From a virus (Duplodnaviria; Heunggongvirae; Uroviricota; Caudoviricetes): a DNA stretch of 6,101 bases. This document shows positions 1 through 6,101 of this stretch, one piece after another (within the stretch, counting starts at the first letter, position 1; the number at the start of each line of letters is the position of its first letter). The notes beneath the pieces are model-generated. The model saw only the letters and a program-made list of their open reading frames with translations, ran no database searches and was not told the origin of the DNA. A program made the position numbers and the translations under genes. Location of the stretch: the IMG/VR virus record IMGVR_UViG_2660238061_000003; one strand, given 5' to 3'.

Positions 1-23
1 TCAGATAATGCCCGATGACTTTG
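1..23 (-). mobile_element. IS1 internal fragment near the right end (insB 3' region), cut by the window edge and the N-run
   Basis: Reverse complement CAAAGTCATCGGGCATTATCTGA matches my recollection of IS1 about 45-70 nt inside its right terminus. Only 23 nt, so identity is tentative. Confidence 0.5.
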
Positions 24-33
24 NNNNNNNNNN

Positions 34-480
34 AATGTATTCCTGAAGCGTTCTCAGTGCTGTTTGGTCGCGGATAATTCCGTCCCGGATATCGAGAACG
101 TTTCGTCCAGCAACTGGAGAGAGTTCGACGGTGGCATCATTGCCCATGCCGGAGGCGCTGGAGGTTTCGGCTGAGGATGGCACAGAGCATTTTCCTTTGA
201 CGAGCACCCGACCACCATTATCAAGCTTGCGCCGAAGAGCATCATTTTCAGCTTTCGCATCAGCCAACTCCTTCGTGTATTTAGCATCGAGTACATCAGC
301 AGCACGCTGGCGTTGCTGCATGTCAGTAATGGTGGCGGTCGCCTGCTTCAGCTCACTGACTTTTTTATCACGCTGTTCTTTGTAGGCGATGGCGTTATCA
401 CGGTAATGATTGACCGCCCACGACAGGCAGACGATGATGCAGATAACCAGAGCATAAATAATCGCGGCGACTCTGCTCAC
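34..480 (-). CDS. Rz: Rz i-spanin (inner-membrane spanin subunit), 3' end lost at the N-run
   Basis: Minus-strand ORF with an N-terminal hydrophobic segment ([19 protein letters not shown]) followed by a charged, helical periplasmic region, closely resembling lambda Rz as recalled. Likely start is GTG at 480-478, overlapping the R stop TGA at 479-477 (GTGA coupling); the ORF track extends to a TTG at 495. The last six codons of the tracked ORF (KSSGII) come from the IS1 fragment beyond the N-run and are not part of Rz. Confidence 0.85.
54..260 (-). CDS. Rz1: Rz1 o-spanin (outer-membrane lipoprotein) embedded in a different frame of Rz
   Basis: ORF in the alternate frame entirely inside Rz. 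Start chosen by similarity to lambda Rz1 (MRKLKMML vs MLKLKMML). Has a lipobox-like MVVGC and a proline-rich stretch ([11 protein letters not shown]) typical of Rz1. Stop TGA at 56-54. Confidence 0.7.
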
Positions 481-1010
481 TGATCTATCCCCCAACAGGC
501 TAATGCGCTTTCCTGGTCACGACGAATAACCTGTCCATAGCAGTTATTTGAACGTATGCGGCAATCGCGCCCACCATCTTTTATCCACCAGCGAATCGCC
601 TCGCATGCACCCTTACGATCACCGGCATTCAGCCGCTTATAAAACGTCGACGGGAAACACTTACCGGGGCCAATGTTATAGGGACAAAATGACGCTATAC
701 CCGCTTTCTGTGGTTCGGTCAGTGGCACTTTAATATTGCGCTCCACCCATGCCAGCGCCTTATCCCGTTCAATGGCGTTAACCTGGTCGCATTTTTCCTT
801 CGACAGTTTCATACCGGGAAAAACGGGTTTTCCATCCACCACCGTGGCACCCCGACAGATGGTCCAGATGCCGGAACCATCGCGGTATGCCGTTGTGTGG
901 TTACCTTCTTTTTCATTCAGAAACTGGTCGAGAATATCAGGCGCAGGCGCACCGACGGCAATCAGTGCCAGAACGGCAGCCGACAGGCCGTATCTGATTT
1001 TTACGTTCAT
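477..1010 (-). CDS. R: SAR endolysin (T4-type lysozyme fold, phage 21 / Stx-phage R-like)
   Basis: 177-aa ORF. N-terminal Gly/Ala-rich weakly hydrophobic signal-anchor-release segment ([18 protein letters not shown]). Catalytic triad spacing E-x8-D-x5-T in [16 protein letters not shown]. Strong recalled similarity to lambdoid prophage lysozymes of E. coli (RrrD/RrrQ/933W R type). Confidence 0.9.
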
Positions 1011-1115
1011 GGATATTTATCAGGATTTATCGGTTTCTGAACCCTGGATATGTTTATCTGTCCCGGCCTGTTGAATCAGGCAAGGAATAGTTAAATACAA
1101 TAGAGAGGATTGTTT

Positions 1116-1388
1116 ATGGACAATAGCACCATTTCTCTACAGGAGTTGCTCGACTGCATTTCCAAGCTTCGGGATGATGTAAATGCCCTTACTGTCGCAT
1201 TTTCATATCTGGCATTCTCAATTCCCAAGGAACAAATGCAACCAACACTGGCATCGCTCCAGCTTGAATCACTCAACCCCAAATGGTCCCAGCAACAACA
1301 AAATTCTTTCAAGTGGCTGGCGGTATTACTGGAAGAAAAATATGCTGGTGAAATTACCATTTCGGCGGAGTCTTCAGAGAACCAGTAA
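1116..1388 (+). CDS. hypothetical acidic 90-aa protein, no predicted transmembrane segment, function unknown
   Basis: Clean ORF with ATG at 1116 preceded by GAGAGGA (1103-1109) and stop TAA at 1386-1388. The overlapping minus-strand ORF 1091..1486 is low-complexity and crosses an N-run. No family recognised from memory. Confidence 0.4.
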   Translation: MDNSTISLQELLDCISKLRDDVNALTVAFSYLAFSIPKEQMQPTLASLQLESLNPKWSQQQQNSFKWLAVLLEEKYAGEITISAESSENQ

Positions 1389-1441
1389 TTCTTCCCGGTA
1401 GCTTTCCTTTGTAGGTTATCCACACATTCTGNNNNNNNNNN

Positions 1442-1978
1442 GACGAAAGGGGATACGGGAAAACGTAAAACCTTCGTGAACACCACGCTCGGTGAGACGT
1501 GGGAAGCGAAAATCGGCGAACGTCCGGATGCTGAAGTGATGGCAGAGCGGAAAGAGCATTATTCAGCGCCCGTTCCTGACCGTGTGGCTTACCTGACTGC
1601 CGGTATCGACTCCCAGCTGGACCGCTACGAAATGCGCGTATGGGGATGGGGGCCGGGTGAGGAAAGCTGGCTGATTGACCGGCAGATTATTATGGGTCGC
1701 CACGACGATGAACAGACGCTGCTGCGTGTGGATGAGGCCATCAATAAAACCTATACCCGCCGGAATGGTGCAGAAATGTCGGTATCCCGTATCTGCTGGG
1801 ATACTGGCGGGATTGACCCGACCATTGTGTATGAACGCTCGAAAAAACATGGGCTGTTCCGGGTGATCCCCATTAAAGGGGCATCCGTCTACGGAAAGCC
1901 GGTGGCCAGCATGCCACGTAAGCGAAACAAAAACGGGGTTTACCTTACCGAAATCGGTACGGATACCGCGAAAGAGCA
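1442..1978 (+). CDS. A: terminase large subunit (lambda gpA-like) internal fragment, copy 1; no native start or stop
   Basis: Translation GDTGKRKTFVNTTLGETWEAKIGERPDAEVMAERKEHYSAPVPDRVAYLTAGIDSQLDRYEMRVWGWGPGEESWLIDRQIIMGRHDDEQTLLRVDEAINKTYTRRNGAEM...LTEIGTDTAKE matches the middle of lambda gpA as recalled. Bounded on both sides by N-runs. Confidence 0.85.
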
Positions 1979-1988
1979 NNNNNNNNNN

Positions 1989-2275
1989 TCTGACCGGCAA
2001 ACTTATCCGCAGCGAGGATGAGGGGCTGGTCACCCACTGGCACTATGACGAAGCAGACCGCCTCACGCACCGCACCGTGAATGGCGAAACCGCAGAGCGG
2101 TGGCGGTATGACGAACGCGGCTGGCTGACAGACACCAGCCATATCAGCGAAGGGCACCGGGTGGCGGTGTATTACGGATATGATGAGAAAGGCCGGCTGA
2201 CCGGTGAGCGTCAGACGGTGCATCATCCGCAGACGAATGAACTGCTCTGGCAGCATGAGACCAGACATGCGTACA
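1989..2275 (+). CDS. rhs: Rhs-family core fragment (YD repeats), internal piece
   Basis: Open frame from 1990 encodes LTGKLIRSEDEGLVTHWHYDEADRLTHRTVNGETAERWRYDERGWLTDTSHISEGHRVAVYYGYDEKGRLTGERQTVHHPQTNELLWQHETRHAY, with repeated YDxxGRL-type motifs typical of E. coli Rhs cores. Flanked by N-runs. Confidence 0.8.
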
Positions 2276-2285
2276 NNNNNNNNNN

Positions 2286-2367
2286 GAGTTCTCAGGAGAA
2301 CCCCGCTGACCCGGCGGCGTGTTTGCCGTTGTTCCGTGTCAGTGGTGGCGCATTATAGGGAGTTATT
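2286..2367 (-). promoter_or_regulatory. rRNA operon P1 promoter fragment: end of spacer, -10 TATAAT, GC-rich discriminator, and about 57 nt of leader
   Basis: Reverse complement AATAACTCCCTATAATGCGCCACCACTGACACGGAACAACGGCAAACACGCCGCCGGGTCAGCGGGGTTCTCCTGAGAACTC matches the rrnB P1 region as I recall it. The -10 is at 2357-2352 and the discriminator GCGCCACC at 2351-2344 on the minus strand. The -35/UP element and the P2 promoter would lie in or beyond the flanking N-runs. Confidence 0.7.
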
Positions 2368-2377
2368 NNNNNNNNNN

Positions 2378-2758
2378 CGCCGGTATCGACTCCCAGCTGG
2401 ATCGCTACGAAATGCGCGTATGGGGATGGGGGCCGGGTGAGGAAAGCTGGCTGATAGATCGGCAGATTATTATGGGCCGCCACGACGATGAACAGACGCT
2501 GCTGCGTGTGGATGAGGCCATCAATAAAACCTATACCCGCCGGAATGGTGCAGAAATGTCGATATCCCGTATCTGCTGGGATATTGGCGGGATTGACCCG
2601 ACCATTGTGTATGAACGCTCGAAAAAGCATGGGCTGTTCCGGGTGATCCCCATTAAAGGGGCATCCGTCTACGGTAAGCCGGTGGCCAGCATGCCTCGTA
2701 AGCGAAACAAAAACGGGGTTTACCTTACCGAAATCGGTACGGATACCGCGAAAGAGCA
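2378..2758 (+). CDS. A: terminase large subunit (lambda gpA-like) internal fragment, copy 2
   Basis: In register with 1598-1978 (offset exactly 780 bp); 10 mismatches in 381 bp, 8 of them synonymous. Encodes AGIDSQLDRYEMRVWGWGPGEESWLIDRQ...TEIGTDTAKE. Ends at the same nucleotide as copy 1, followed by an N-run. Confidence 0.85.
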
Positions 2759-2997
2759 NNNNNNNNNNCCCCCCCGGTAGAGTTGCCCCTACTCCGGTTT
2801 TCGAGACCGATGATACAGAGTCGAAAAATCAAAGAGTTAAAAATTTCTCTTGGAATAAATGTCTTAAAATTGTACACGAAAAATCAATGAATTACATAAC
2901 ATTAAAGAAGAATATTCCAAGCCTTCTTGAGGCTACCACCTGTTTTCAGGTGTCATTCAGACGTGATTTGCCCCAGATTGGGAAAGCACGCTTTTTT

Positions 2998-3055
2998 GGT
3001 GATGCTGCCAACTTACTGATTTAGTGTATGATGGTGTTTTTGAGGTGCTCCAGTG
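2998..3055 (+). mobile_element. IS1 left terminus (IRL plus leader up to the insA GTG start), cut by the N-run
   Basis: GGTGATGCTGCCAACTTACTGATTTAGTGTATGATGGTGTTTTTGAGGTGCTCCAGTG matches the first about 58 nt of IS1 as recalled. The final GTG (3053-3055) corresponds to the insA start codon. Confidence 0.8.
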
Positions 3056-3065
3056 NNNNNNNNNN

Positions 3066-3319
3066 TCTTTCAGTGACTGTTGCAATGGCTGTGAGGGAGA
3101 ATCTTTAAGCCATTGCGTTTCAGTGGCATTTTTCCACTCAACCAGCCAGGAAGCCATTTTCCCGTAAGGGATGTATTTATTACCGGCCTCATGATTCTCA
3201 TTCTGACGTGCCAGAGCACGATTGAAAACGAAACGACATGCGCCTGCGAAGCGCCTCATTTCACACTCCTGTTGACCACCTGGTCTTAACTGGAATTTAA
3301 ATGCCTGTAATCGTTTCAC
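3066..3319 (-). CDS. tnpB: TnpB (IS200/IS605-family OrfB, InsQ/IS609-like) N-terminal about 84 codons, cut by the N-run
   Basis: GTG start at 3319-3317. Translation MKRLQAFKFQLRPGGQQECEMRRFAGACRFVFNRALARQNE...WLKDSPSQPLQQSLK matches the conserved TnpB N-terminal region (compare the recalled IS608/ISDra2 pattern KAFxxRLYP...RFVYN...LQxSLKxLE). Confidence 0.7.
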
Positions 3320-3326
3320 AGGTCAA

Positions 3327-3503
3327 ATGATACTTTGGTCTGTGAAAAAAGAAACCGATATCCGGCGTGGAAGGCATTGTGTTTTCCTGATGCATGTTCA
3401 CCTGCTCTTTGTCACCAGATACCGACGCCAGATTTTTGACCATGACGCGACAGAAAAACTACGCACTTACTTTTCAAATGTATGTGCTGATTTTGAAGCT
3501 GAA
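3327..3503 (+). CDS. tnpA: TnpA (IS200/IS605 Y1 HuH transposase) N-terminal fragment, cut by the N-run
   Basis: RRGRHCVFLMHVHLLFVTRYRRQIF aligns with the TnpA N-terminal beta-strand motif (ISDra2 KKGRGYVYQLEYHLIWCVKYRHQVL, recalled). ATG at 3327, only 7 bp from the divergent tnpB start. Confidence 0.6.
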
Positions 3504-3513
3504 NNNNNNNNNN

Positions 3514-4249
3514 ATGGCACATGGCCTGTCTATAGCTAATTCCGAAGTCAGGACGTTAACCGCCGATACCGATAGCGGGAAAGATGCAGCGGCAGCACTT
3601 GCCGCGCGACTGCTGCAAGCCTCGCGCGAATCTGCCGGAAATACTTATCTTACACATAAAGGTTTCCCGGAACATATTTGCCATGAGCTGACTTCAGCTC
3701 ATAAAACCGGTGGGGTGATGTTCCGCCCCGGTGATTTGATCGTCCCGCTCTATAACGCTGACGGGGAGCTGGTGAATATTCAGCTTATCAGTGGCAATGG
3801 TAGCAAGTGTTTTCTTAAAGGAGGTCAGGTTAAGGAGGCCTATCATCTTATAGAAGGGGGCGGGAGTTCAGTAAGAAGAATGTGGATTACGGAAGGCTAC
3901 GCCACGGCGCTTACCATTCATCATCTGACTGGAGAAGCCGTCATGGTGGCATTTTCGGCGGTCAACTTTCTTTCTCTGGCCAGCGTTGCCCATAACAAGT
4001 ATCCGGGATATCAGTTAATTATTGCAGCGGACCGCGATCTGAATGGTTCAGGCCAGAACAGGGCGGAAGCTGCTGCAAAAGCGTGTCAATGTGACATTGT
4101 CCTGCCACCGGTTTTTGGTGACTGGAATGATGCGCTTGCCCATTACGGAGAGGAATCCACCCTGAAGGCAATTCTTGAGGCTTTGAAGCCACATAACGCC
4201 AGTCCTTTCGACACGATGAGTGAAGCAGAATTCACAGCGATGAGTGTCA
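3514..4249 (+). CDS. DNA primase fragment with EGYATA motif (P4 alpha / plasmid TraC-Sog type, Toprim-like), truncated at both ends
   Basis: Open frame across the whole block. Contains ITEGYATAL (about 3892-3909) and the acidic motifs AADRDLNG and GDWND, matching the published EGYATA primase signature. The frame continues through the flanking N-runs only by chance. Confidence 0.65.
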
Positions 4250-4259
4250 NNNNNNNNNN

Positions 4260-4553
4260 AACTTTTCCGTTATTACCGTTGATTTCCGTACCGGTGGAAT
4301 CCTTGCCGTCAACGGTGGTTTTGCCGTTGTTGTTTGCCGTGGCGTCATCACCATTAATCTGGGTGCCGGTGCCGCCGTTGGTGATGGAACTGTCGTCTTC
4401 GTTGTTAACAACCGCCTTGTCACCGTCGATCTGGATACCCATGGACTCCGGATCGGTGACGGTCATGGTGCCCTTGTTATCCACCGTCGCACTGTCGCCG
4501 GTGATATCAATCCCGTGACCGCCGCCGCTGACATCCAGATCGCCGTCCTGAAT
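4260..4553 (-). CDS. Gly/Asn/Thr/Asp-rich repeat protein fragment, adhesin-passenger-like or tail-fibre-like
   Basis: The minus strand is open over all 98 codons and shows about 14-residue periodicity (IDITGDSATVDNKG / IQIDGDKAVVNNED / TQINGDDATANNNG / TEINGNNGKV). The plus-strand frame is also open but reads as Pro/Leu/Val-rich antisense. Family not determinable without a search. Confidence 0.4.
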
Positions 4554-4563
4554 NNNNNNNNNN

Positions 4564-4806
4564 TCCGGCGGTAAAGAATGATCCGGCAATGGCGGCTGCT
4601 CCCAGGACAATCTGGAATACGCCCCCTGACTTGGCCCCGGCGACTCTGGGAACAATATGAATCACAGCGCCGTCAGGCAGAACCTCATGTAACTGCGCCG
4701 TCAATCCGGACGTGCTGACATCCCGCCCGGCAATCCGTACCTGATACCAGCCGTCGCTCAGTTTCTGACGAAACGCCGGGTTCTGCATGGCCAGCGCCCG
4801 GATGGC
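4564..4806 (-). CDS. I: lambda gpI-like tail assembly protein fragment
   Basis: Translation AIRALAMQNPAFRQKLSDGWYQVRIAGRDVSTSGLTAQLHEVLPDGAVIHIVPRVAGAKSGGVFQIVLGAAAIAGSFFTAG is near-identical to the middle of lambda gpI as recalled. Bounded by N-runs. Confidence 0.8.
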
Positions 4807-4816
4807 NNNNNNNNNN

Positions 4817-4912
4817 GCCTTTTTCTCTGATCCAACGGTTAACAGTTTGTTTAGCCACACCGAGGCATTCAGCCAGTTCTTCGGTGGTCATTTTATTGCG
4901 TAATCTTTTCAT
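4817..4912 (-). CDS. yfeD: YfeD-like HTH DNA-binding protein, N-terminal 32 codons only (cut by the N-run)
   Basis: MKRLRNKMTTEELAECLGVAKQTVNRWIREKG with ATG at 4912-4910, one nucleotide after the yfeC stop. Paralogous to the upstream gene; the name is assigned from the recalled K-12 order alaX-alaW-yfeC-yfeD. Confidence 0.65.
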
Positions 4913-4913
4913 A

Positions 4914-5273
4914 TTATTTGCTATCGCGAATCCCTAAGCGTTGTAACAATCCGATAATCCCTTCCCGCAGAAGCAAGGATGTAAACTGTTTTTGTTCAAC
5001 TGGCGTCATCTCTTTCGCCAGTGTCACCAGCAATACTTCAAGCGGCGCATCACCAGAAAGGGCAGGCGCTTCTCCCTGACCTTCTGGACGTTCAGCATTG
5101 CGAATATATTCACGAACCTGTTCATTGACGTGAACCAGTCGGGCTTTGCCACCCTGGACGCCAGGTTTTGGTGACGTTGTCCAGCCTTCCTTGCGTACCC
5201 ATTTATTAATGGTCTGGCGGCTATAGCCGGTCAGTCTGGCAAGTTCATCTGGTGTCATCCTCTCCTTGAACAT
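4914..5273 (-). CDS. yfeC: YfeC-like small HTH DNA-binding protein (DUF1323-type)
   Basis: 119-aa ORF MFKERMTPDELARLTGYSRQTINKWVRKEGW... with an AGGGA Shine-Dalgarno about 7 nt upstream and stop TAA at 4916-4914. Matches recalled E. coli YfeC and sits next to tandem tRNA-Ala(GGC) as in K-12. Confidence 0.75.
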   Translation of the reverse strand: MFKERMTPDELARLTGYSRQTINKWVRKEGWTTSPKPGVQGGKARLVHVNEQVREYIRNAERPEGQGEAPALSGDAPLEVLLVTLAKEMTPVEQKQFTSLLLREGIIGLLQRLGIRDSK

Positions 5274-5432
5274 AACAATTCCCTGAATGTATGTGGGTCT
5301 ATTAGTAGTTCATTTTATAACACCACTTTACAGGAAACCGTGACATGAATAACTACTGAATGCGAGCGGTTTTCCAAAATTGTTCATTTGCCTGATTTTT
5401 CAGCGATTGAAACTACACGTTGCAATTTGCCG

Positions 5433-5461
5433 TTGACACATTCGGGCGGAATTCATATGAT
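5433..5461 (+). promoter_or_regulatory. sigma70 promoter of the tRNA-Ala operon (-35 TTGACA, 17-bp spacer, -10 TATGAT), followed by a GC-rich discriminator
   Basis: TTGACA at 5433-5438 and TATGAT at 5456-5461 with exact 17-bp spacing. GCCGCCC follows immediately (stringent-type discriminator). Lies about 32 nt upstream of the first tRNA. Confidence 0.7.
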
Positions 5462-5493
5462 GCCGCCCGTCAACTCGACAAGCTTTACGTGAC

Positions 5494-5569
<76 letters not shown>

Positions 5570-5608
5570 AATTTTGCACCCAGCAAACTTGGTACGTAAA
5601 CGCATCGT

Positions 5609-5670
<62 letters not shown>

Positions 5671-5680
5671 NNNNNNNNNN

Positions 5681-5809
5681 TATTTCATTTGCAGGCAAAT
5701 TCATGAGCCAATCCGCATCCTGAAGCGGTTTCTTTGCCCTTGCGAGGAGTGTCACTACATGTCCGGTTGCAGCCTGAATCTGTTTTTCCGTCAATTGTTG
5801 TTCTGCCAT
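5681..5809 (-). CDS. small hypothetical protein, N-terminal 43 codons (cut by the N-run)
   Basis: ATG at 5809-5807 preceded by a consensus AGGAGG Shine-Dalgarno (5824-5819, 9-nt spacing). Encodes MAEQQLTEKQIQAATGHVVTLLARAKKPLQDADWLMNLPANEI. The longer tracked ORF 5558..5839 runs into the tRNA antisense and is not credible. Confidence 0.35.
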
Positions 5810-5828
5810 ATCGTTGTTCCTCCTCATT

Positions 5829-6101
5829 TTATTGTGCATGACGGTCTTTAAGAGTACAGGCTGAACCGTAGCGGCCCAGGGGCTGTGGCTGACGCTCGAG
5901 GGAATCGCTCCTCGATTTAGGCTCCGGCGCCGTTGGTTTATGGGGTTTCATAATTATCGTGTCGACACTTTCAAGGGCAGTAAATGTGCACGAACATTCA
6001 AGATTCTGGCACTGATACCATGAGCGCTTAACCGATGGGGCTTCATAGGCGCTGGTTCTGGCATGAGCGACCGTGCCACATTCAGGACATTTCAGGGCCA
6101 T
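5829..6101 (-). CDS. ogr: Ogr/Delta-family zinc-finger late transcription activator (P2 Ogr / P4 Delta-like)
   Basis: MALKCPECGTVAHARTSAYEAPSVKRSWYQCQNLECSCTFTALESV has the CxxC...CxxxxC zinc finger and AHxRTS motif of P2 Ogr as recalled. The start ATG coincides with the window edge (6101); stop TAA at 5831-5829. About 18 aa longer at the C-terminus than the 72-aa P2 Ogr. Confidence 0.75.
   Translation of the reverse strand: MALKCPECGTVAHARTSAYEAPSVKRSWYQCQNLECSCTFTALESVDTIIMKPHKPTAPEPKSRSDSLERQPQPLGRYGSACTLKDRHAQ

What the first reader, a model, noticed from the sequence alone, without database searches (positions are those of the whole stretch)
1598..2758. Two terminase-large-subunit fragments in exact register 780 bp apart, diverged mainly at synonymous sites
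1598-1978 and 2378-2758 align without indels with 10 mismatches (about 97% identity). Eight are synonymous and two are conservative (V/I, T/I). That pattern indicates two independently maintained terminase genes, probably from two lambdoid prophages in the source genome, not a recent tandem duplication. Both copies end at the same nucleotide before an N-run and share an identical final 62 nt, as expected if fragments were cut where the copies become indistinguishable.
Basis: seen in the sequence. Interest (0 to 1): 0.4.

Follow-up and report, generated by a model that had tools for sequence, protein, structure and literature searches.

The report
Two prophage terminase alleles, assembly fragments
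The two similar stretches are fragments of the lambda-type terminase gene from two different prophages, placed 780 bases apart only because short assembly fragments were strung together with N spacers; this is ordinary.

Summary
Window 1598-1978 and 2378-2758 align without gaps, with 10 mismatches in 381 nt: 8 synonymous, plus V/I and T/I. The last 62 nt are identical.

Both pieces are internal fragments of the 1926-nt lambda gpA-type terminase large-subunit gene, at gene positions 1035-1571 and 1191-1571 (nuclease domain).

The 780-base spacing has no biological meaning. The window is 13 unrelated pieces joined by exactly 10 N each. An Rhs fragment and an 82-nt piece lie between the copies, and no finished E. 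coli genome places neighbouring pieces together. Most pieces come from multi-copy elements.

Each copy matches natural alleles almost exactly:
- Copy 1 is 100% identical to strain MEI005.
- Copy 2 has one mismatch to ETEC H10407 and phage Turner.

Nine of the ten variant sites segregate among independent alleles. dN/dS is about 0.08. Ten finished genomes carry both near-exact alleles at separate loci.

Both pieces start on polymorphic sites and end 62 nt after the last difference. A tandem tRNA-Ala piece also ends exactly 62 nt into its second copy. This looks like a k=63 assembly-graph signature, though not a clean one.

The source genome could not be retrieved, so a mixed-strain origin is not excluded. 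Nothing here is novel.

The parts
1442..1978 (+). Allele 1 fragment of the lambda gpA-type terminase large-subunit gene (gene nt 1035-1571 of 1926; aa ~345-524, nuclease domain). It is a whole assembly piece bounded by N10 on both sides.
   Evidence: Open frame with no stops. Pfam GpA_nuclease E=2.9e-46. 100% identical over 537 nt to E. coli MEI005, S51, ZYS9073 and JNEC-KY180. Gene coordinates from L002.
2378..2758 (+). Allele 2 fragment of the same gene (gene nt 1191-1571). It is a whole assembly piece bounded by N10 on both sides.
   Evidence: Open frame. Pfam GpA_nuclease E=8.9e-28. One mismatch (2456 A vs T) to ETEC H10407 and at least 60 other finished genomes. 99.7% identical to phage Turner and 98.2% to lambda.
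1917..1978 (+). 62-nt tail of allele 1, identical to the tail of allele 2. It is the overhang into the region where the copies are indistinguishable.
   Evidence: In the reference alleles the identity continues for 417 nt to the stop codon.
2697..2758 (+). 62-nt tail of allele 2, identical to 1917-1978.
1979..1988 (.). 10-N spacer. It is one of 12 spacers in the window, all exactly 10 N; the others near the finding are 1432-1441, 2276-2285, 2368-2377 and 2759-2768.
1989..2275 (+). Unrelated piece lying between the two copies: an Rhs core (YD-repeat) fragment.
   Evidence: Pfam RHS_repeat E=6.5e-11. Hits rhsB/rhsC; together with the 82-nt piece, a median of 7 places per genome.
2286..2367 (+). 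Unrelated 82-nt piece between the copies. It is not adjacent to the Rhs piece in any finished genome, and its identity was not established.
   Evidence: In one search no place covers at least 80% of 1989-2367.
5609..5670 (+). Supporting feature outside the finding: the first 62 nt of a second tRNA-Ala(GGC) gene (alaX), where the piece 4817-5670 stops. It shows the same '62' as the terminase tails.
   Evidence: 62-nt exact repeat of 5494-5555. (tRNA-Ala at 5494-5569). (piece 100% identical to K-12; alaW and alaX are identical 76-nt genes).

Best explanation
The two stretches are fragments of two different alleles of the lambda gpA-type terminase large-subunit gene (nuclease-domain part). Most probably they come from two lambdoid prophages resident in one E. 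coli-like genome.

They are not neighbours in any genome. The window is a string of short-read assembly fragments, mostly pieces of multi-copy mobile elements, glued together with 10-N spacers, and that alone creates the 780-base offset.

The assembler could keep the two copies apart only where they differ. Each fragment begins on a site where gpA alleles differ and ends 62 nt after the last difference, because from there to the end of the gene the copies are identical and collapse. An overhang of 62 equals k-1 for a k=63 de Bruijn graph.

The excess of synonymous differences reflects long-standing purifying selection on a functional packaging enzyme in a recombining phage gene pool.

Shown: gene identity, allele identity, artificial juxtaposition, the boundary rule, and co-occurrence of both alleles in finished genomes. 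Inferred: that both alleles come from the same source genome, and the assembler type and k value.
For: Gene identity: Pfam GpA_nuclease. Annotated terminase large subunit in lambda-type head modules. 3333 of 5426 finished E. coli genomes carry the gene, with 4714 places and up to 5 per genome.

Two real alleles: copy 1 is 100% identical to MEI005 and others, and copy 2 is one mismatch from H10407 and many others. Phages carry each type. Nine of 10 variant sites are polymorphic among 7 independent alleles. dS=0.084, dN=0.007, omega=0.08, P=8e-4.

Co-residence is natural: with a strict cut-off (3 or fewer mismatches in 381 nt), 1466 genomes carry allele 1, 177 carry allele 2, and the union is 1633, so 10 genomes carry both. 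The place counts add up exactly, 1912+183=2095. PMC10925052 reports two prophages in one O157 chromosome sharing 10 kb at 97.7%, and states that short reads cannot handle homologous prophage content.

Artificial juxtaposition: there are 12 spacers of exactly 10 N. No finished genome holds two neighbouring pieces in one place. The pieces are lambdoid lysis genes, gpA twice, Rhs, IS605 OrfB, a Toprim primase, lambda tail protein I, Ogr/Delta, IS1 ends and a tandem tRNA.

Boundary rule: the reference alleles differ last at gene nt 1509 and are then identical for 417 nt, and both pieces end at 1571. The tRNA-Ala piece ends exactly 62 nt into the second identical tRNA. Both piece starts (gene nt 1035 and 1191) sit on polymorphic sites, where the local density of such sites is 2.8%.
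Against: The source record could not be retrieved. The exact allele-2 99-mer is absent from the viral, genome and metagenome contig collections, so 'same genome' is inferred.

The k=63 reading is not clean:
- The two pieces share an internal exact 84-nt run (1698-1781 = 2478-2561) and neither breaks there. That needs read-based repeat resolution.
- Both pieces that run into IS1 stop 58 nt inside it, not 62.
- Starting exactly on a variant base while ending 62 nt past one is asymmetric. It fits node labels printed without their leading k-1 bases, which is my own recollection of such formats and was not tested.

One piece (4817-5670) starts in the middle of the single-copy gene yfeD for no visible reason. 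That would fit a strain mixture, an IS insertion or a coverage gap equally well.
Confidence: 0.8

Rival explanations
1. The two alleles come from two different E. coli strains present in one sample (mixed culture, metagenome or pan-genome graph). They would then be the same kind of prophage gene in two genomes rather than two prophages in one genome.
For: The source was not found, so this cannot be checked directly. The pieces are very short (13 in 6.1 kb). One piece begins inside the single-copy gene yfeD without any known repeat there, as a strain SNP would cause. Genomes carrying both near-exact alleles are uncommon: 10 observed, against about 48 expected if the alleles were independent.
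Against: A strain mixture would break the assembly mainly in core genes, which make up most of the genome. Here nearly all pieces are multi-copy mobile or repeat elements, and the one core piece ends in a tandem tRNA repeat. The window matches a median of 31 places per finished genome for 13 pieces. No other gene appears in two allelic versions in the window.
Confidence: 0.13
2. A genuine tandem or segmental duplication of part of the terminase gene, with the copies 780 bp apart in the genome.
For: Only the in-register offset of 780, a multiple of 3.
Against: Four N10 spacers, an Rhs fragment and an unrelated 82-nt piece lie between the copies. No finished genome has such an arrangement. A divergence of 2.6%, concentrated at synonymous sites that are also polymorphic between unrelated genomes, is not what a recent duplication would show.
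Confidence: 0.01
3. A single gpA gene split into two pseudo-alleles by sequencing or assembly error (an error bubble).
For: One of the ten differences (2456 A) is not seen in any finished genome or fetched allele and could be an error.
Against: The other nine differences reproduce natural alleles exactly. Copy 1 is identical to several genomes and copy 2 is identical to many apart from that one base. Random errors would not be 8:2 synonymous.
Confidence: 0.01

Closest known systems
Bacteriophage lambda gpA (terminase large subunit; Pfam Terminase_GpA / GpA_nuclease)
   Same: Same gene. The closest full-length relatives are 1926 nt / 641 aa, with the same start and stop as lambda-identical sequence. 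The fragments are 98-99% identical at nucleotide level to lambda and lambda-like phages. They cover the GpA_nuclease domain and, in the matched genomes, sit in a Nu1-A-W-portal-protease-D-E module.
   Different: Only allelic differences: 7 mismatches to a lambda-identical allele for each fragment. The window holds only internal fragments, so neither gene is shown to be intact in the source.
Multiple near-identical lambdoid prophages within one E. coli chromosome (e.g. STEC O157:H7)
   Same: Co-resident prophages share kilobases at about 97-98% identity and defeat short-read assembly (PMC10925052). Here gpA is present at up to 5 places per genome, up to 4 near-exact allele-1 copies occur per genome, and 10 genomes carry both alleles.
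   Different: The source genome here is unknown. O157 Sakai prophage Sp15, which I inspected, carries a different terminase type of 2124 nt, so not every lambdoid prophage is relevant.
Repeat collapse and contig breaks in de Bruijn-graph short-read assemblies (k-1 overhang into a repeat)
   Same: Three piece ends stop exactly 62 nt into sequence that is repeated elsewhere: both terminase tails and the second tRNA-Ala. Pieces are enriched for repeat families.
   Different: An internal 84-nt shared run is traversed. The IS1 ends stop at 58 nt. Piece starts carry no k-1 overhang. So these are not plain unitigs, and the assembler and its settings are unknown.

Membership tests
Lambda gpA-type terminase large subunit | Significant match to the GpA nuclease-domain profile (PF20454) above Pfam's gathering score | tested here: met
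   158.4 bits and 97.8 bits against a cut-off of 22.5.
Lambda gpA-type terminase large subunit | Uninterrupted reading frame colinear with full-length gpA | tested here: met
   178 and 126 codons without stops, aligned without gaps to gene nt 1035-1571 and 1191-1571 of 1926-nt genes.
Lambda gpA-type terminase large subunit | N-terminal ATPase/translocase domain present, i.e. a complete gene | not testable with these tools
   The window holds only internal fragments and the source record was not found. The nearest finished-genome alleles are full-length, 641 aa.
Lambda gpA-type terminase large subunit | Position in a lambda-type packaging/head module (Nu1 upstream; W, portal, protease, D, E downstream) | not testable with these tools
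   The fragments have no flanks in the window. In MEI005 and H10407 the identical or near-identical genes do sit in exactly this module.
Tandem / segmental duplication | Continuous genomic sequence joining the two copies | tested here: not met
   Four N10 spacers and two unrelated pieces lie between them. No finished genome joins neighbouring pieces.
De Bruijn-graph assembly fragments (k=63) | Piece ends lie a fixed k-1 nt beyond the last base that distinguishes repeat copies | tested here: inconclusive
   Exactly 62 nt at both terminase ends and at the tRNA-Ala end, but 58 nt at both IS1 ends.
De Bruijn-graph assembly fragments (k=63) | No k-mer shared between different unitigs | tested here: not met
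   22 shared 63-mers lie in the 84-nt run 1698-1781 / 2478-2561. The pieces are therefore not plain unitigs, and read-based repeat resolution would have to be assumed.

The most novel reading that the evidence does not exclude
The identical 3' tail shared by the two copies might be a recent gene-conversion tract between two co-resident prophages, which would be a direct trace of intragenomic prophage-prophage recombination. At least 62 nt of identity is visible here, and 417 nt in the reference alleles. My evidence leans against this: alleles from unrelated genomes (MEI005 and H10407) are also identical over the same 417 nt. The identity therefore looks like a population-wide conserved or mosaic segment rather than a conversion event in this genome.
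Probability: 0.08. Interest if true: 0.15.

Novelty: already known. Interest (0 to 1): 0.05.

Why it matters
It matters only as a caution. Windows cut from N-joined draft assemblies can place paralogous fragments side by side and mimic duplications with 'exact register'. The biology behind it is textbook knowledge: several lambdoid prophages per E. coli genome, with nearly identical, mosaic packaging genes under purifying selection, which short reads cannot resolve. The fixed 62-nt overhang is a handy diagnostic for recognising assembly-graph fragments in raw sequence.

Tried and rejected
(1) Retrieving the source. An exact 99-nt allele-2 pattern containing the private base 2456A was scanned against viral contigs, genome contigs and metagenome contigs, with 0 hits each.

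(2) Finding several gpA loci within one species-representative genome with the search for related loci. It gave only one locus per enteric genome, and mostly revealed lambda DNA contamination in unrelated assemblies.

(3) Inspecting O157:H7 Sakai prophage Sp15 as a worked example. Its terminase is a different type, 2124 nt, so it was a dead end.

(4) Looking for a finished genome listed in both allele searches, to obtain two coordinates. The tool lists one place per record, and none of the exact allele-1 carriers was among the top 60 allele-2 hits. I replaced this with the strict-E-value inclusion-exclusion count.

(5) I considered and dropped short haplotype-specific 48-mers for that count. 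Most natural alleles are recombinant at those sites and would hit both queries.

(6) Plain k=63 unitig model: rejected as an exact description, because of the traversed 84-nt shared run and the 58-nt IS1 overhangs.

(7) Searching the window for the expected shared downstream continuation of gpA (gene nt 1572 onward): absent.

(8) Rfam sweep of the window: only the tRNA.

Full report
**Observation.** The window is not a continuous sequence. It consists of 13 pieces (1-23, 34-1431, 1442-1978, 1989-2275, 2286-2367, 2378-2758, 2769-3055, 3066-3503, 3514-4249, 4260-4553, 4564-4806, 4817-5670, 5681-6101) separated by 12 runs of exactly 10 N.

Within it, 1598-1978 and 2378-2758 align base for base over 381 nt, with 10 mismatches and no indel. 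In the single open frame, seven mismatches are synonymous third-position changes. The first (1598/2378) is the synonymous third base of a Thr codon that is cut by the start of the second piece. Two change the protein: V/I at 1782 and T/I at 1804. The last 62 nt are identical.

**What the pieces are.** Both translate into the endonuclease domain of lambda gpA (Pfam GpA_nuclease, E=2.9e-46 and 8.9e-28).

Against 5426 finished E. coli genomes, piece 1442-1978 hits 'phage terminase large subunit family protein' in 3333 genomes. There are 4714 places in all, and up to 5 per genome. Piece 2378-2758 gives almost the same picture.

In two matched genomes the gene is 1926 nt long. It lies in a typical lambda head module: Nu1-like nohA/nohD, gpA, head-tail joining protein, portal, S49 protease, decoration protein, major capsid protein. 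The window pieces correspond to gene nt 1035-1571 and 1191-1571.

**Two genuine alleles.**
- Copy 1 is 100% identical over all 537 nt to strains MEI005, S51, ZYS9073 and JNEC-KY180.
- Copy 2 differs by a single base (2456 A instead of T) from ETEC H10407 and at least 60 other finished genomes.
- Free phages carry each type. Stx1a-converting phages and PhiR42_1 are 99.3% identical to copy 1. Phage Turner is 99.7% identical to copy 2. Lambda itself is 98.2% identical to copy 2.
- Among seven independent full-length alleles, nine of the ten sites that distinguish the copies are polymorphic, in various combinations. This is the usual mosaic pattern of lambdoid genes. Only 2456A is private.
- Nei-Gojobori counting gives dS=0.084, dN=0.007 and omega=0.08. 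Two or fewer replacements among nine in-frame changes has P=8e-4 under neutrality.

These are two long-separated, selectively maintained versions of a working gene. They are not sequencing errors and not a fresh duplication.

**Why they sit 780 bases apart.** The interval between them holds an Rhs core fragment (RHS_repeat; rhsB/rhsC), an unrelated 82-nt piece and four N10 spacers.

When the whole window is searched against finished genomes, the best place in any record covers a single piece, 23% of the window. Neighbouring pieces are never joined. The Rhs piece and the 82-nt piece are likewise never adjacent.

The other pieces are a lambdoid endolysin/Rz cassette, an IS605-type OrfB N-terminus, a Toprim primase, a lambda tail assembly protein I fragment, an Ogr/Delta zinc-finger gene, two IS1 ends, a repetitive adhesin-like fragment, and yfeD'-yfeC-alaW-alaX'. 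The 13 pieces find a median of 31 places per genome. The window is thus a bin of repeat-derived assembly fragments glued together with N10. The 780-base offset, and the fact that it is divisible by three, carry no information.

**Where the pieces are cut.** The MEI005 and H10407 alleles differ at 42 sites. The last is gene nt 1509, and the remaining 417 nt are identical. Both window pieces stop at nt 1571, which is 1509+62.

Independently, piece 4817-5670 is 100% identical to E. coli K-12. It runs through alaW and stops exactly 62 nt into alaX, an identical 76-nt copy.

Both terminase pieces also begin exactly on sites that are polymorphic among natural alleles, gene nt 1035 and 1191. The local density of such sites is 2.8%, so two hits by chance would occur at roughly 8e-4.

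The simplest reading is an assembly graph with k=63, in which fragments extend k-1=62 nt into sequence shared with another copy.

The signature is not perfect, in three respects:
- The copies share an internal exact run of 84 nt, and neither piece breaks there.
- The two pieces that enter IS1 from opposite ends both stop at element position 58, not 62.
- The absence of a k-1 overhang at piece starts is asymmetric.

I therefore regard 'short-read graph fragments' as well supported, and 'k=63' as a reasonable but unverified detail.

**One genome or two?** The source could not be retrieved. An exact 99-nt allele-2 pattern is absent from the viral, species-representative genome and metagenome contig collections.

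Indirect evidence favours two prophages in one genome:
- The pieces are overwhelmingly repeat families rather than core genes. That is expected if breaks come from intragenomic repeats, and not if they come from strain SNPs.
- Multi-copy gpA is common.
- With a strict cut-off that admits only alleles within about 3 mismatches of each 381-nt fragment, 1466 genomes carry allele 1, 177 carry allele 2, and 1633 carry either. So 10 finished genomes carry both. The alleles differ at 10 sites, so the two must be at separate loci. The place counts add up exactly (1912+183=2095), which confirms consistent thresholds.
- The literature describes the same situation. Lambdoid prophages make up 10-15% of STEC chromosomes, two prophages in one chromosome can share 10 kb at 97.7% identity, and short reads cannot handle such homologous prophage content (PMC10925052).

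A mixed-strain origin remains possible, at about 0.13. It would be supported by the unexplained start of one piece inside single-copy yfeD.

**Comparison with known systems and verdict.** The gene is lambda gpA in all tested respects. Completeness and genomic context cannot be tested from the fragments alone. The arrangement is not a tandem duplication, because the defining continuity is not met.

Everything is accounted for by well-known biology (several mosaic lambdoid prophages per E. coli genome) and a well-known technical artefact (repeat collapse in short-read assemblies, with contigs concatenated using N spacers). Novelty: none. Interest: very low.

Noticed in passing
L003-L009, L013, L014, L025, L028, L036, L037, L044-L078: Dozens of non-enteric species-representative assemblies (Shewanella, Pseudomonas, Oceanobacillus, Bradyrhizobium, Kitasatospora, Enterococcus, Paenibacillus, Prevotella, Vibrio and others) contain gpA that is 99-100% identical to lambda. 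It sits on contigs of about 48.5 kb or on tiny low-coverage contigs. This is almost certainly phage lambda control or ladder DNA contamination in public genomes.
   Followed up: no
window 1-23 and 2998-3055: Both pieces that run into IS1, from opposite ends of the element, stop exactly at IS1 position 58, whereas the terminase and tRNA pieces stop 62 nt into their repeats. The 4-nt difference is unexplained. Possible causes are shared 4-nt flanks in a genome rich in IS1, or a second k value.
   Followed up: partly
window 1698-1781 and 2478-2561: An 84-nt exact run shared by the two terminase pieces is traversed without a break. The fragments are therefore not simple k=63 unitigs, and some read-based repeat resolution must have been applied.
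   Followed up: partly
window 4817-5670: This piece is 100% identical to E. coli K-12 (yfeD'-yfeC-alaW-alaX'), but it starts in the middle of the single-copy gene yfeD with no known repeat there. The cause could be an IS insertion in the source, a coverage gap or a strain SNP.
   Followed up: no
window 34-1431: The lambdoid lysis cassette (endolysin, Rz-like spanin, and a small + strand ORF at 1110-1388) has no match better than 98.0% among 5426 finished E. coli genomes. This prophage module of the source strain is comparatively unusual.
   Followed up: no
window 2769-2810 (reverse strand): The piece appears to begin with about 41 nt resembling the 3' half of tRNA-Ser (serU-like) followed by AT-rich DNA and an IS1 end, as at the far end of an island integrated at a tRNA gene. 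This is my own reading of the sequence. ARAGORN and Rfam did not call it.
   Followed up: no
E. coli genomes counts: Genomes carrying both near-exact gpA alleles are rarer than independence predicts: 10 observed against about 48 expected from 1466 and 177 of 5426. This may reflect phylogenetic structure, shared attachment sites or immunity. It was not analysed.
   Followed up: no
window 2456: The A at 2456 (ATA Ile instead of ATT Ile) is the only base of copy 2 not seen in any finished genome or fetched allele. It is either a private synonymous variant or a sequencing error.
   Followed up: partly
window 1989-2275 and 2769-3055: Two unrelated pieces have exactly the same length, 287 nt. This is probably coincidence.
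   Followed up: no
NZ_CP159531.1 (H3) and NZ_CP159529.1 (H4): Strain ZYS9073 carries the exact copy-1 allele both on its chromosome (2 places) and on a separate 115-kb record. That record may be a phage-plasmid or an extrachromosomal prophage.
   Followed up: no
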